From Escherichia coli (GTDB lineage Bacteria; Pseudomonadota; Gammaproteobacteria; Enterobacterales; Enterobacteriaceae), in NCBI RefSeq assembly GCF_017348835.2, contig NZ_CP071375.1: 64,000 bases of DNA. One strand, 5' to 3'. The position numbers are program-made. How positions within the stretch are numbered: the stretch's first letter is position 1; every line of letters starts with the position of its first letter. Shown piece after piece: positions 48,501 through 63,500 of the stretch.

Positions 48501-51500
48501 GCTTCGGGCTGTTTGCGCATTGATGCTGAGATACGCTTCCAGTCTTCGCGATCCTTGTCGATAACCTCATTTGTCGCCCAGCGATGGATGGTACCGTCAA
48601 TGTTTCCTGCATCCACATCACCGGGCCAGAGGGCGCAGGCCAGTTCATTGTCGAGTGTTTTCCATGTCTGTTTGTATTCGCGGCGAATGGCAACAGTGAC
48701 AGCCCCGGTTTTTTCAGCAGCGTTTTCAGTGTTCTGTTGGTTGACTCTGGCGCGGGTGAGATCAACAACAGACGTGTATTTTCCGGTTTCCTTGCGTTCA
48801 CCTTCGCGACGTTTTTTCCAGATGCGCATCTCTGCCTGAATTTCAGGCCATTTAGCGCCAGGCTCACATTTATGCTTAACCCACCCGATGGCATGCAGTT
48901 TAAGTTCAGGATACATGGCGTTAACTTCTGGCATTTTCATCAACGCTTCAACGATATGTCCGCCGAATGTTGCCATGTCTTCCTGTAGTAATTCCTGTGC
49001 GCTAATCACCATATCAACGGTGATGTTTTCGCATGTGTCGAATTTAACCAGGACTGCGTTCTGTACTTCAGGGGACAGCTTGTCAAAATTGACGTTCATC
49101 GGATCGGATTCTGGTTCGACCGGTACAAAGGAAGCTGACTCCTCATCCCAGCGGTTTTCCTGCATATATTCGGTATCCCAGGAATCGAGGGCAGGGCGGG
49201 GTATGCCGGGTTTATCCTCGCAGACAATAAATTTATAAGCGCAGTCCTGAGCTGCCGGGAATTGCTCCAGAAATTGCCAGTGAAATTTTGCGCGTGCGCG
49301 ACGCTCATCACCGGCTTCAATGGCAGTGGCCACCGCAACAGCGCTATCTTCTTTTATGGCCTGTTCGTCAGGAATAGCAGCGCAAATAAAGATTTTACTC
49401 ATTGTGTTTTAACCTCATTACAGATTTAAGGGTGAACAAATCCCTGCCATTGCTGGCATATAAAAATGAAACCGGATATTAATTACGGTGCTGTTTTAAA
49501 GTCCTGCCGGTATTTCGTTATTATTAGTGTGAGTAGTTTTATCTACCGGATAACAGTTACCGGGAATTTTTTGTTCTGCTGCTGCAGCCATGCATTCTTT
49601 CATTGAACCGTATAAGCCAGTCACCAGCTCAAGAGATTCGCCGGAAACAAGATAAACTGTCAGAACGAGTGCAAATGTTGTATTCATTGTTTATATCCTT
49701 TTTGCAGCAGGTCCAGACGAGCCAGCATTGAAGGAATGCATACTTCATTTAACAGGTCCTGCTCGAGTTTTCTCTGCTTAATGGCGTCTTCAATAAATGT
49801 TTTGTCTCCAGTGATAACGCCAATTTCGAAACGAAGTTCAGACGTGCTGGCATTACATGATAACTTTTCCATTATCGCGTCCTCAACAATGAATTTTGTG
49901 ATGCGGTGCCTGGTGCCTCCAGGTGACGTTAACCAGTTAACAATTAACGCCGGATACAGAGCATTCTCGTTACTCAGCAAATGACCGCTTTACCGATTTA
50001 ACTGTTCCGCGTGCGCTGAGCCGCATTCACCGCATCACAAAATTCACTTTTAAAAAAGGGCGGCAGAGCAGTCACGGAGTAAAACTGATACCGCCAAATG
50101 TCACCAGAATATTGATAACAGAGGGCGTTGCAGCGGGGTTGTCACTTAAGCGTATGGTCAACCTGACAACCCGGTGTCCTCAACGGGGAAAGAATAACCC
50201 CGCCATACTTACCGCCGCGCCATTTCGCGGATTGCCACAACCGGAAGCGCACGGTCGAATTAAATTTAACGACGGCTCTAAGGGAGAAGGACTTCGCCGT
50301 GCACTTTCGTGTTATGCCCTGACTTTTCAGGGATATATCCTTTCAGTAAACTGTCAGTGCCGGATTCTTATCTGTGTCCGGCGCACGACCACACGTAGCA
50401 GCGTGTTGGTCTCCATTTTTAATTCAGCCCTTAATGGAGGATAAAATGCCAAACAAACCATGCCCTGCCTGTAACGCTCTTTCTGGCTTTTTAGAGAAGG
50501 GCGGTTATTACATTTTTAACTGTCCAGAACATGTTGAATTTCATATATCAAAACTTGACAGTATCATTACAAAGCCAAATCAGTATCAGTCTGATTTACT
50601 GAATAAAGAGTTAAACGCCGCCCGAGATTAAGGGCGTAGTGGCCCATTAAAAATATTGCAAAGACCAACTATTGTTGAACTGGATTAAACCAGTAATTCT
50701 CTATTGCTCTTATTGTTACCATCGGATGATTGCCGGGGGTTATTTTAAGTTCGGGAGGAAAAGGCTCTCCATCAGCAGCCATCATTGAGTATGTGAAATC
50801 CGCCGACGCAGTCCCTTTCATGATAATTCCGAATTTTTCAAGTAATGAGAGCAGTTCCGGTAATCCTGTGTCATCTGAATAACTTTCCTCATAGAAAGAA
50901 GCGATTGCCGCAGGAGATGACAGTTCTCGCTCTGCAATTTTTTTGTAGTTTTCCAGAGTTCTTTTTTTGAATACTTTTCCTCGACATGAAAACCCATCAC
51001 CGAGGCAATCCGCTTTGCAGTTTCTTCAGTATTCTGGTTGTTTGTTACCGAAACAGAGTACAATCCGGTAAACGCATCGCGCACATTACGAGCCATATTA
51101 TCAATGTATTTCTTCGTTGCAGATTCTAATTCAACTTCGTTCAGACGTTGGTGAAGTGCATGTGCTGCAATTTCCTGGATTTCTTTTAGTAAATCTTTAA
51201 ATTCCATCTTTAACTCCGTTAGTCGTTAGATTTTGCCGAACTGGAAAGCGCCTGTTTAAACTCACTGAAGCTGAGAGCTTCCTCGCCTTCGGCAAGGCCT
51301 TTGAACCGCCCCGGGTTTCCTGGAGAGTGTTTTATCTGTGAACTCAGGCTGCCAGATCATTATTTCCGATGGAAGCATAATAAGCTTTTTCTGCTTCTGC
51401 CGGAGGAATATGGCCCAGCCTTTCCAGCAATCGTCGATTGTTATACCAGTCCACCCACGTTAGTGTGGCCAGTTCCACTTCTGCACGGTTTTTCCAGCTC

Positions 51501-60500: not shown

Positions 60501-63500
60501 GTCAGCAACAGCGACATCATCCGGATAAACGCAGTGCCCGTGCGCAGCACGATGACTGGCTGAAGAAAGAGATACAGCGCGTATACGATGAAAATCACCA
60601 GGTATACGGTGTGCGTAAAGTCTGGCGTCAGTTGTTACGGGAAGGTATCAGAGTGGCCAGATGCACTGTGGCACGTCTCATGGCAGTTATGGGACTTGCC
60701 GGTGTTCTCCGGGGTAAAAAGGTCCGCACTACCGTCAGCCGGAAAGCCGTTGCCGCATGCGACCGCGTAAACCGTCAGTTCGTGGCAGAACGTCCAGACC
60801 AGTTGTGGGTGGCTGATTTTACCTGGGTAAGCACATGGCAGGGCTTCGTTTATGTGGCGTTCATCATTGATGTGTTCGCCGGATACATCGTGGGATGGCA
60901 GGTCTCATCATCCATGGAAACAACATTCGTGCTGGATGCACTGGAGCAGGCGTTGTGGGCCCGTCGGCCGTCCGGCACAATCCATCACAGTGATAAAGGT
61001 TCTCAGTATGTATCGCTGGCCTACACGCAGCGGCTTAAGGAAGCCGGATTACTGGCATCAACAGGGAGTACTGGCGACTCGTATGACAACGCGATGGCTG
61101 AGAGCATCAATGGTCTTTACAAAGCGGAGGTAATACACCGTAAGAGCTGGAAAAACCGGACAGAAGTGGAACTGGCCACACTCACGTGGGTGGACTGGTA
61201 TAACAATCGACGATTGCTGGAAAGGCTGGGCCATATTCCTCCGGCAGAAGCAGAAAAAGCTTATTATGCTTCCATCGGAAATAATGATCTGGCAGCCTGA
61301 GTTCACAGATAAAACACTCTCCAGGAAACCCGGGGCGGTTCACCACTGGGATTTTGGCGCAACTTCATGGTGCAGAGGTAAATAGCATCAAGCAAAATCT
61401 CTTTTTCCGTTGTTGTCCTTATGGGACGTCTGTCTTTCTGACCGATTTCATATTGGCGAGGTAATGGGAAGTTAAGTAGAATAGCTGCGGGTGCTTGAGG
61501 CTATCTGCCTCGGGCATGAACACCAACGGCAGATAGAGAAAAGCCCCAGTTAACATTACGCGTCCTGCAAGACGCTTAACATTAATCTGAGGCTCAATCT
61601 ATGAACGGCAAATCTAGGTTAGCCTCTTACGTGCCGAAAGGCAAGGAGATGTATGGGTCCACCACATATTGCAATTTTTATTCTCTTTTAAAATATATTC
61701 CACGGGCGTCATTAGTGCGAGCGCCTTGTGGGGTCTTTTGCTGTTATACAGCACCAGATATTCCGCCAGCTTCTGGTTAAATAGCGCCAGATCTTCAAAG
61801 AGTAAAATCTCATTAAATTCAATAAACTGCTCTCTTAACGTCCGGTTAAAACGTTCACAGATAGCGTTCATTTTTGGCGTGTAGGGATAGGTCCAGAGGT
61901 GTTTGATAGCGGCTTCCTGCAGCGTTTTGTCGAAGTTTCCCAGGAACTCTTTTCCGTTATCTGTGATTATCTGGCTGATACCGACCGGGAACAACCGGGC
62001 TGCGCGGCTGAAGAAGTGATTGACGATATCACTGTTGAGTGACGGCACAGCCAGCGCCAGCGCGTAATTGCTGCATTCGTCGATCATGGTGATGACATAG
62101 CGACGCAGTTCGCCCATTCTGAGCTCAATGGCGTCCATCCCAATGAGCTCACCTGTCTTTACCGGGCGGTAGTGCTTTGGCCTGCGGGGTTTGGCAGACC
62201 GCTTTTTGACAAGCAGTGCCTTCCCCCGCGATCCCAGACGCACAGGTATCATCCGCATTTTATCATGTGCGGCAGCGATCATTCTGCCGATGGTGGAAAC
62301 ACTCGGACAGGCCAGATAGCGCTGTTCGCACCAGGGCTTCAGGCGAACAAAAATCTGCTCTTTACCGAGGTTCGGCAGCTCTGTCCTGAGGCGTCGAATC
62401 TCTTTCAGCACATCGGGATGCCAGTGTTTTTTTCGTCGCACCAGAGGTGCCTTACTGTGCGGGATTAGCCCCTCAGGTCCTTCCTTGTTCAGTAACTGAC
62501 GCCACCAGTAAAGCGTGCGGCAGGACACGCCAAAGGCTTCAGAAGCTGCAGAAATACCGTGTTTATCCCAGAAGTGCAGAGCCTTCATTCTCATTGTTGC
62601 TATATCAGCCATCACTGAAAGCCTCAACGCATAATCGGCCGTTTGGTAGTACTTAGGATAGCCAACCATCAGATGCTGCATTTGCATAGTGCAATCTCCC
62701 CTTACTTATCCGGAGGCAATTGCAATATCTCTGTGAACTTACACAGGAGAAGCAGGCTATGAAGCAGCAAAAGGCGATGTTAATCGCCCTGATCGTCATC
62801 TGTTTAACCGTCATAGTGACGGCACTGGTAACGAGGAAAGACCTCTGCGAGGTACGAGTCCGAACCGGCCAGACGGAGGTCGCTGTCTTCACAGCTTACG
62901 AACCTGAGGAGTAAGAGACCTGGCGGGGGAGAAATCCCTCGCCACCTCTGATGAATCAGGCATCCTCAACGCACCCGCACTTAACCCGCTTCGGCGGGTT
63001 TTGTTTTTTCCTGGCATTCTGGTTTACAATTCGCACGCCAGCCTGAACAACTGGCACCTGCTGCGCCAGCAGAGACAACCGATGGCGCACGATACCAAAT
63101 TATACAATTCTGATGATTCTGCCGTCTTTGCCAGCAGGCGCGGACGGTGTTTTCACGCATTCAAATCTGACTGGTACCAGCATCCCCCATGCACTGAAGA
63201 ACAGGCCGAATGGCTCATTCAGTGTTACCGCAGGCGCGGATGCGAGGTTAAAAAAGCCCTTAGCCTCGACTACCGTCACTGGATAATCTCCGTCAGGCTC
63301 CCTTACTCCGAACGGCCACCGCGTCCGTCCCGCACATTCCAGCAACGGATCTGGAGGTAATGTGCGGGTATTACTTCGACCTGTTCTGGTACCGGAACTC
63401 GGTCTGGTTATCGTTAAGCCAGGCCGTGAATCCATGCGGGTATTTCATGGCGGCAGGGTGCTGGTGGAGTCTGAACCGAAAAGCATGCGTAATCTGCCGT

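What the first reader, a model, noticed from the sequence alone, without database searches (positions are those of the whole stretch)
51302..61342. Two inverted IS629-like copies, each with its own target duplication, bracket the 7.4-kb immunity and replication module
Both copies are 1310 bp with identical terminal repeats but different 3-bp direct repeats (CTT and CCA) and at least 2 nucleotide differences. They are therefore independent insertions, not a composite transposon and not the product of an inversion between them. Their inverted orientation nevertheless allows homologous recombination to invert the repressor/TA/replication block in part of the population.
Basis: seen in the sequence. 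Interest (0 to 1): 0.5.

Follow-up and report, generated by a model that had tools for sequence, protein, structure and literature searches.

The report
Two IS629 insertions in a prophage
Two copies of a common E. coli jumping gene (IS629) landed separately on either side of a dormant virus's control and replication genes; this is real but ordinary, and there is no evidence that the segment between them flips.

Summary
Two 1310-bp IS629-type elements (IS3 family) lie in inverted orientation at 51302-52611 (-) and 60033-61342 (+). They differ at 4 bases, not 2. Each is flanked by its own 3-bp duplication (CTT, CCA). IS-free relatives carry a single CTT and a single CCA at exactly these points, so these are two separate insertions. 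They are not a composite transposon and not an inversion product. The 7421-bp interior holds a repressor, cro-like and cII-like genes, relBE, and O-like and DnaC-like replication genes. It sits in the same place and orientation in about 400 IS-free E. coli genomes.

The window matches pig isolate PE164, which has roughly 30 places matching the IS. PE164 is the only one of 5,426 complete genomes with both sites occupied. No genome shows the inverted linkage, but one double-IS genome gives that test almost no power.

Recombination between the copies could invert the block. That is a generic property of inverted repeats and is not shown here.

The copy-to-copy base differences depend on the assembly and are weak evidence. 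IS629 insertions in prophages are well documented, so the finding is already known in kind and of low interest.

The parts
51302..52611 (-). IS629-type element, copy A (1310 bp). The IRL end is at 52611 and the IRR end at 51302. It carries orfA (52231-52557) and orfB (51344-52234) and is inserted in ydfB.
   Evidence: intact ORFs and inverted repeats; ALIL frameshift pseudoknot at 52160-52276; NF033516, IS3 family; ydfB annotated as truncated in PE164
51299..51301 (.). Target-site duplication CTT, left copy for IS copy A
52612..52614 (.). Target-site duplication CTT, right copy for IS copy A
60033..61342 (+). IS629-type element, copy B (1310 bp). It carries orfA (60087-60413) and orfB (60413-61300). 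It is inserted in the spacer or pseudogene remnant between the alpha/beta-hydrolase gene and the hok/sok locus.
   Evidence: (ALIL at 60368-60484); (a pseudogene fragment spans the empty site in 12009)
60030..60032 (.). Target-site duplication CCA, left copy for IS copy B
61343..61345 (.). Target-site duplication CCA, right copy for IS copy B
52612..60032 (.). The 7421-bp prophage early region between the two copies. It contains ydfA, relE/relB, an HTH repressor, a cro-like gene, a cII-like/YdaT gene, an ECs1072-family gene, an O-like initiator, a DnaC-like loader, DUF1627, a Ren-like/DUF977 gene and an alpha/beta hydrolase.
   Evidence: 418 genomes cover at least 80% of it; PE164 is 100% identical; annotation; PHROGs
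53002..53042 (.). Palindromic operator-like site overlapping a leftward sigma-70-like promoter (pL-like). It drives ydfA and then runs into IS copy A.
54038..54078 (.). Partner palindromic operator-like site (OR/pR-like), just upstream of the cro-like gene
   Evidence: the promoter itself is inferred and was below the scan threshold

Best explanation
Two separate transposition events placed an IS629 isoform (IS3 family, 1310 bp) into a lambdoid prophage integrated beside yccA. The host is a pig-derived E. coli that is, or is nearly, strain PE164, and about 30 places in its chromosome match the IS. IS3-family elements move by copy-out-paste-in; that step is established knowledge and was not tested here. 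Each insertion duplicated 3 bp of target. Copy A split ydfB, the second gene of the leftward dicB-type early operon (ydfA-ydfB-ydfC-DicF-dicB-...-exo-int). Copy B landed in non-coding DNA between the replication block and the hok/sok, Q and late genes. Both copies look transposition-competent. Both lie in the sense direction of the early transcripts that enter them. The inferred consequence is partial uncoupling of the immunity and replication core from the distal left genes (dicB, exo, int) and right genes (Q, lysis). RecA-dependent recombination between the copies could invert the 7.4-kb core. That is a generic possibility and nothing here suggests a function for it.
For: Shown directly:
- Exact anatomy and target duplications.
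- Empty sites with a single CTT and a single CCA in 12009.
- 384 genomes are uninterrupted across site A and 465 across site B. Only PE164 holds both insertions.
- The window is 100% identical to PE164 over 47,095 bp.
- 99.5% identity (7 differences) to an element annotated IS629 in phage BP-4795, and about 96% to an O157:H7 copy.
- IS3-family transposase model matched and ALIL frameshift pseudoknot found in both copies.
- OrfA is identical in the two copies. The OrfB frames are intact and differ at 2 residues.
- 32-38 places in PE164 match queries containing the IS; these counts include a few flank matches.

From the literature:
- IS629 makes 3-4 bp duplications, and 62% of O157 copies lie in prophages or prophage-like elements (PMC3271280).

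Recurrent IS629-type insertions in the same early region of related prophages:
- OK1, within ydaT.
- CEC12044, between ydfC and dicB.
- UTAK-6, 248 bp from site B.
Against: Nothing contradicts two independent insertions. The functional consequences are inferred only. IS629 is not strongly polar in a phage late operon: a stx2::IS629 phage still expressed downstream genes and formed plaques (PMC7430833). The prophage may therefore remain inducible. The order and timing of the two insertions are unknown. No genome with only one of the two exact sites occupied was found.
Confidence: 0.93

Rival explanations
1. The IS pair acts as a recombinational flip-switch. Homologous recombination between the inverted copies inverts the immunity and replication block in a meaningful fraction of cells. 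This swaps which distal genes the pL-like and pR-like promoters feed.
For: The two copies are inverted, 1310 bp long and 99.7% identical, with uninterrupted identical stretches of 379 and 746 bp. Recombination between IS copies underlies most large rearrangements, including inversions, in evolving E. coli (PMC4173774). Both copies are sense-oriented to the early transcripts, so a flipped state would still be transcribable.
Against: No inverted linkage occurs in 5,426 complete genomes, although only one genome has both copies. Both target-duplication pairs are matched, so the sequenced molecule is un-inverted or has inverted an even number of times. There is no site-specific recombinase or other sign of a dedicated switch. 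The insertions are confined to a single genome, so selection has had no time to shape a function.
Confidence: 0.04
2. The 10-kb unit is a composite transposon that delivered the immunity and replication module to this site.
For: Two like IS copies bracket a discrete gene block.
Against: The outermost flanks differ (CTT versus CCA), and each copy has its own duplication. The same module lies at the same place and orientation, without any IS, in 384-465 genomes. Both outer ends are IRR ends.
Confidence: 0.01
3. One or both IS copies, or their differences, are assembly artefacts of a high-copy repeat.
For: The window and the PE164 record are identical outside IS elements. They disagree at 3 bases inside copy A and at 3 small indels in the neighbouring IS481-like element. 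That pattern is typical of polishing differences in multi-copy repeats.
Against: The placements themselves carry precise 3-bp duplications at both sites, and both sequence versions have them. An assembler does not create exact target duplications. Every variant base is an allele seen in other IS629 copies.
Confidence: 0.02

Closest known systems
IS629 / IS1203 / IS3411 isoform group (IS3 family) in EHEC/STEC prophages
   Same: Length is 1310 bp. orfA (108 aa) and orfB (about 296 aa) overlap, with an ALIL -1 frameshift pseudoknot. The target duplication is 3 bp, and the elements prefer prophage DNA. Identity is 99.5% to the IS629 annotated in phage BP-4795 (PMC3271280).
   Different: About 4% divergent (50-54 differences) from the O157:H7 copy that PGAP labels IS1203-family. 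These two exact insertion sites occur in only 1 of 5,426 complete genomes.
Phage BP-4795, which carries two IS629 elements
   Same: A lambdoid phage genome with two IS629 copies bracketing a short gene block.
   Different: In BP-4795 the copies are in direct orientation, lie about 1.5 kb apart near the tail-fibre end, and differ at 45 positions. Here they are inverted, 7.4 kb apart, nearly identical, and flank the early region.
IS-mediated inversions by homologous recombination in E. coli (long-term evolution lines; O157 prophage-repeat inversions)
   Same: The substrate is the same: long, near-identical inverted repeats (PMC4173774; PMC7430833).
   Different: Those inversions were observed directly. 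Here none is observed. The segment is small (7.4 kb) and lies inside a prophage.

Membership tests
IS629 (IS3 family) | Element length about 1310 bp with imperfect terminal inverted repeats beginning TGAAC... | tested here: met
   Both copies are 1310 bp. The terminal repeats match at the first 13 positions and at positions 17-25.
IS629 (IS3 family) | A 3-4 bp target-site duplication | tested here: met
   CTT and CCA, verified against empty sites. The expected 3-4 bp is from PMC3271280.
IS629 (IS3 family) | Two overlapping ORFs (orfA, orfB) with a -1 frameshift signal and an IS3-family DDE transposase | tested here: met
   An orfA of 108 aa and an orfB frame of 295/296 aa. NF033516 scores 312 bits against a cutoff of 160. 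The ALIL pseudoknot RF01497 scores 120-121 bits.
IS629 (IS3 family) | High nucleotide identity to a named IS629 reference | tested here: inconclusive
   Identity is 99.5% to the elements the depositors annotated as IS629 in BP-4795, and 95.9-96.2% to an O157:H7 copy. The Shigella sonnei type sequence and ISfinder were not available, so the isoform or sub-type assignment is not settled.
Composite transposon | One shared target duplication flanking the whole IS-cargo-IS unit | tested here: not met
   The outer flanks are CTT and CCA, and each IS has its own pair.
Composite transposon | Cargo absent from this site in relatives that lack the IS copies | tested here: not met
   The cargo is present and collinear in IS-free genomes.
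Invertible DNA switch | Both orientations observed | tested here: not met
   0 of 5,426 genomes show the inverted linkage. Power is low, and population-level reads could not be tested.
Invertible DNA switch | A dedicated site-specific recombinase acting on the repeats | tested here: not met
   No invertase is annotated in or next to the segment. Only the prophage integrase, about 5 kb away, and the IS transposases are present.

The most novel reading that the evidence does not exclude
The two sense-oriented IS629 copies make the prophage's immunity and replication core a reversible cassette. In the flipped isomer the rightward early promoter would read into dicF, dicB, exo and int. The leftward promoter would read into hok, Q and the late genes. 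This would create a subpopulation with altered induction or toxicity.
Probability: 0.03. Interest if true: 0.4.

Novelty: already known. Interest (0 to 1): 0.12.

Why it matters
It matters little beyond annotation. It documents two strain-specific IS629 insertions, plus an older IS481-family one, that dissect a lambdoid prophage's early region in a pig-derived E. coli. This adds to the well-known pattern of IS629 accumulating in prophages and possibly crippling them. It also offers a practical caution: single-base differences between copies of a high-copy IS in an assembly should not be used as evidence of independent origin.

Tried and rejected
- **Inverted isomer search.** I built a synthetic query of left flank, IS, and the reverse complement of the inner right end. 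No genome had a place covering at least 80% of it. The test is valid but weak, because only PE164 has both copies.
- **Short junction patterns.** I considered scanning large collections for short recombinant-junction patterns and rejected it. Recombination inside the IS preserves all four junctions between the IS and unique DNA. Only linkage across the full 1.3 kb is informative, and pattern searches cannot span that.
- **O157:H7 OK1.** It appeared as a second genome with site A occupied. Inspection showed its IS is in ydaT, a different site. The tool had joined separate pieces.
- **UTAK-6, FSIS11705876 and O157 9234.** These looked like occupants of site B. UTAK-6 proved to be a different insertion 248 bp away. 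The other two were not inspected.
- **Phage collection.** No close match to the 7.4-kb module as a whole was found; the best hit covered 41% at 81% identity.
- **IEE.** I did not test whether the strain carries the IS-excision enhancer, because no query sequence was at hand.

Full report
**Observation**

The repeat finder reports one long inverted pair, 51302-52611 and 60033-61342. Each arm is 1310 nt and they lie 7421 nt apart. Direct comparison shows 4 mismatches, at element positions 380, 1127, 1128 and 1151. Copy A is flanked by CTT on both sides and copy B by CCA on both sides. No other IS629-like sequence occurs in the window.

**Proof that the triplets are target duplications**

The 7.4-kb interior occurs in 418 complete E. 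coli genomes at 80% coverage or better. In O103:H2 strain 12009 the same prophage has no IS. It reads ...GGCCTT|CGAAG... and ...ATCACCA|CTGGG... at the two points, one CTT and one CCA. Synthetic empty-site queries find 384 genomes uninterrupted across site A and 465 across site B.

Queries spanning flank, IS and flank find only strain PE164 with either exact site occupied. O157:H7 OK1, which looked like a second site-A genome, has its IS in ydaT instead. UTAK-6 has an IS 248 bp from site B. FSIS11705876 and O157 9234 also matched the site-B query but were not inspected.

These are therefore two lineage-specific insertions into an otherwise conserved, collinear prophage region. That rules out delivery of the block as a composite transposon. 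Together with the matched duplication pairs, it also rules out the present arrangement being the product of a single inversion.

**Source**

Window 1-47095 is 100% identical to the chromosome of E. coli PE164, a pig isolate from Nanjing. That stretch runs from ompF to yccA and is followed by the prophage integrase. Within 46.6-64 kb the only differences from the PE164 record are 3 substitutions inside IS copy A and 3 small indels inside a neighbouring IS481-family element.

In the PE164 record the two IS629 copies differ at positions 1067, 1127 and 1128. In the window they differ at 380, 1127, 1128 and 1151. Differences confined to repeated elements suggest two assemblies or polishings of essentially one strain. 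The copy-to-copy SNPs are therefore weak evidence, although every variant base is an allele seen in other IS629 copies. PE164 has 32-38 places matching the IS-containing queries, so roughly 30 copies.

**Identity of the element**

- The sequence is 99.5% identical (7 differences) to an element annotated as IS629 in Stx1 phage BP-4795.
- It is about 96% identical (50-54 differences) to an O157:H7 copy that PGAP labels IS1203-family.
- All compared copies are exactly 1310 bp.
- Both window copies encode an identical 108-aa OrfA.
- Both have an intact OrfB frame. These differ by M1I, which removes the separate ATG but not the frame, and by A251T.
- OrfB matches the IS3-family transposase model at 312 bits against a cutoff of 160.
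- Both carry the ALIL frameshift pseudoknot at 120-121 bits.
- Published work reports 3-4 bp duplications for IS629, 62% of O157 copies in prophage or prophage-like DNA, and several 4-5% divergent sub-types (PMC3271280).

The type sequence from Shigella was not available, so the sub-type is not assigned.

**What lies between and around the copies**

The interior encodes these products:

- ydfA
- RelE and RelB
- an HTH repressor
- a Cro-like regulator
- a CII-like/YdaT protein
- an ECs1072-family protein
- an O/DnaD-like replication initiator
- a DnaC-like loader
- DUF1627
- a Ren-like/DUF977 protein
- an alpha/beta hydrolase

A pair of 41-nt palindromic sites at 53002-53042 and 54038-54078 brackets relBE and the repressor gene. 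The left site overlaps a leftward sigma-70-like promoter. These look like OL/pL and OR/pR.

Copy A interrupts ydfB, about 390 bp downstream of the leftward promoter. It lies ahead of ydfC, DicF (Rfam match at 50058-50109), dicB, the exonuclease gene and int. Copy B sits in a spacer or pseudogene remnant after the replication block. It lies ahead of hok/sok, rusA and Q. Each IS is oriented in the sense of the early transcript that enters it.

The inferred effect is partial uncoupling of the core from the distal early and late genes. IS629 is not fully polar in a phage late operon, however (PMC7430833), so this effect is not established.

**Inversion**

Recombination between inverted IS copies is a well-documented cause of inversions in E. 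coli (PMC4173774). The copies here share uninterrupted identical stretches of 379 and 746 bp. Inversion is therefore possible.

I tested for it with a query linking the left flank, across the IS, to the reverse complement of the inner right end. No genome of 5,426 has that linkage. Only one genome has both copies, so the negative result is weak.

A practical point for the proposed experiment: recombination inside the IS preserves all four IS/unique-DNA junctions. Only reads or amplicons spanning a whole IS can reveal the isomer. There is no invertase, no conservation of the IS pair and no other sign of a dedicated switch.

**Verdict**

The inversion idea is a generic possibility without evidence. 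The finding as a whole is an ordinary, already-known kind of event: IS629 accumulating in a prophage of a strain with many IS copies. Interest is low.

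Noticed in passing
window 61650-62744: A third insertion sequence of the IS481 family, 1095 bp, with a 357-aa transposase ORF at 61614-62687 (-). It has a 6-bp duplication, AGGAGA, which is the hokD Shine-Dalgarno. It separates the sok/hok leader (Rfam sok at 61489-61655) from the hokD coding sequence (ATG at 62759). It is shared with many O103, O45 and O121 STEC prophages but absent from 12009 and UTAK-6, so it is older than the two IS629 insertions.
   Followed up: partly
window 51302-52611 and 61650-62744 versus L001: The window is 100% identical to PE164 over 47 kb. 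It differs from that record only inside repeated IS elements: 3 SNPs in IS629 copy A and 3 indels in the IS481-like element. This looks like two assemblies or polishings of one strain and makes the base calls in the IS copies unreliable.
   Followed up: partly
window 53002-53042 and 54038-54078: Two related 41-nt palindromes flank the relBE and repressor genes. The left one overlaps a leftward TTGACA-N18-TAGATT promoter-like site. They are probably the OL and OR operators of this DicA/Rac-type immunity region.
   Followed up: partly
window 50058-50109 (-), 49496-49687 (-): A DicF sRNA (77 bits) and dicB lie downstream of IS copy A in a dicB-operon homologue. The IS in ydfB may dampen expression of these cell-division inhibitors when the repressor is lost.
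   Followed up: no
L006 6785-7998; L007 3043-4256; L003 9953-11262: IS629-type elements have inserted independently at other points of the same early region in related prophages. These are in ydaT in O157:H7 OK1, between ydfC and dicB in O103:H2 CEC12044, and 45 bp upstream of the hydrolase gene in UTAK-6. This suggests a regional preference or tolerance. The CEC12044 transposase has the same protein accession as PE164 copy A.
   Followed up: partly
window 60412 (element position 380): In copy B a G-to-A change turns the orfA stop TGA into TAA and the overlapping orfB ATG into ATA (ATGA becomes ATAA). The fused frameshift product would carry M to I. The same allele is in both PE164 copies and in UTAK-6. 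Its effect on any independent OrfB translation is unknown.
   Followed up: no
window 1-46600: The rest of the window is ordinary E. coli core chromosome, from ompF through pepN, ssuEADCB, the elf fimbrial operon (elfC frameshifted in PE164), pqiABC, ompA and sulA to yccA. The prophage is integrated next to yccA.
   Followed up: partly
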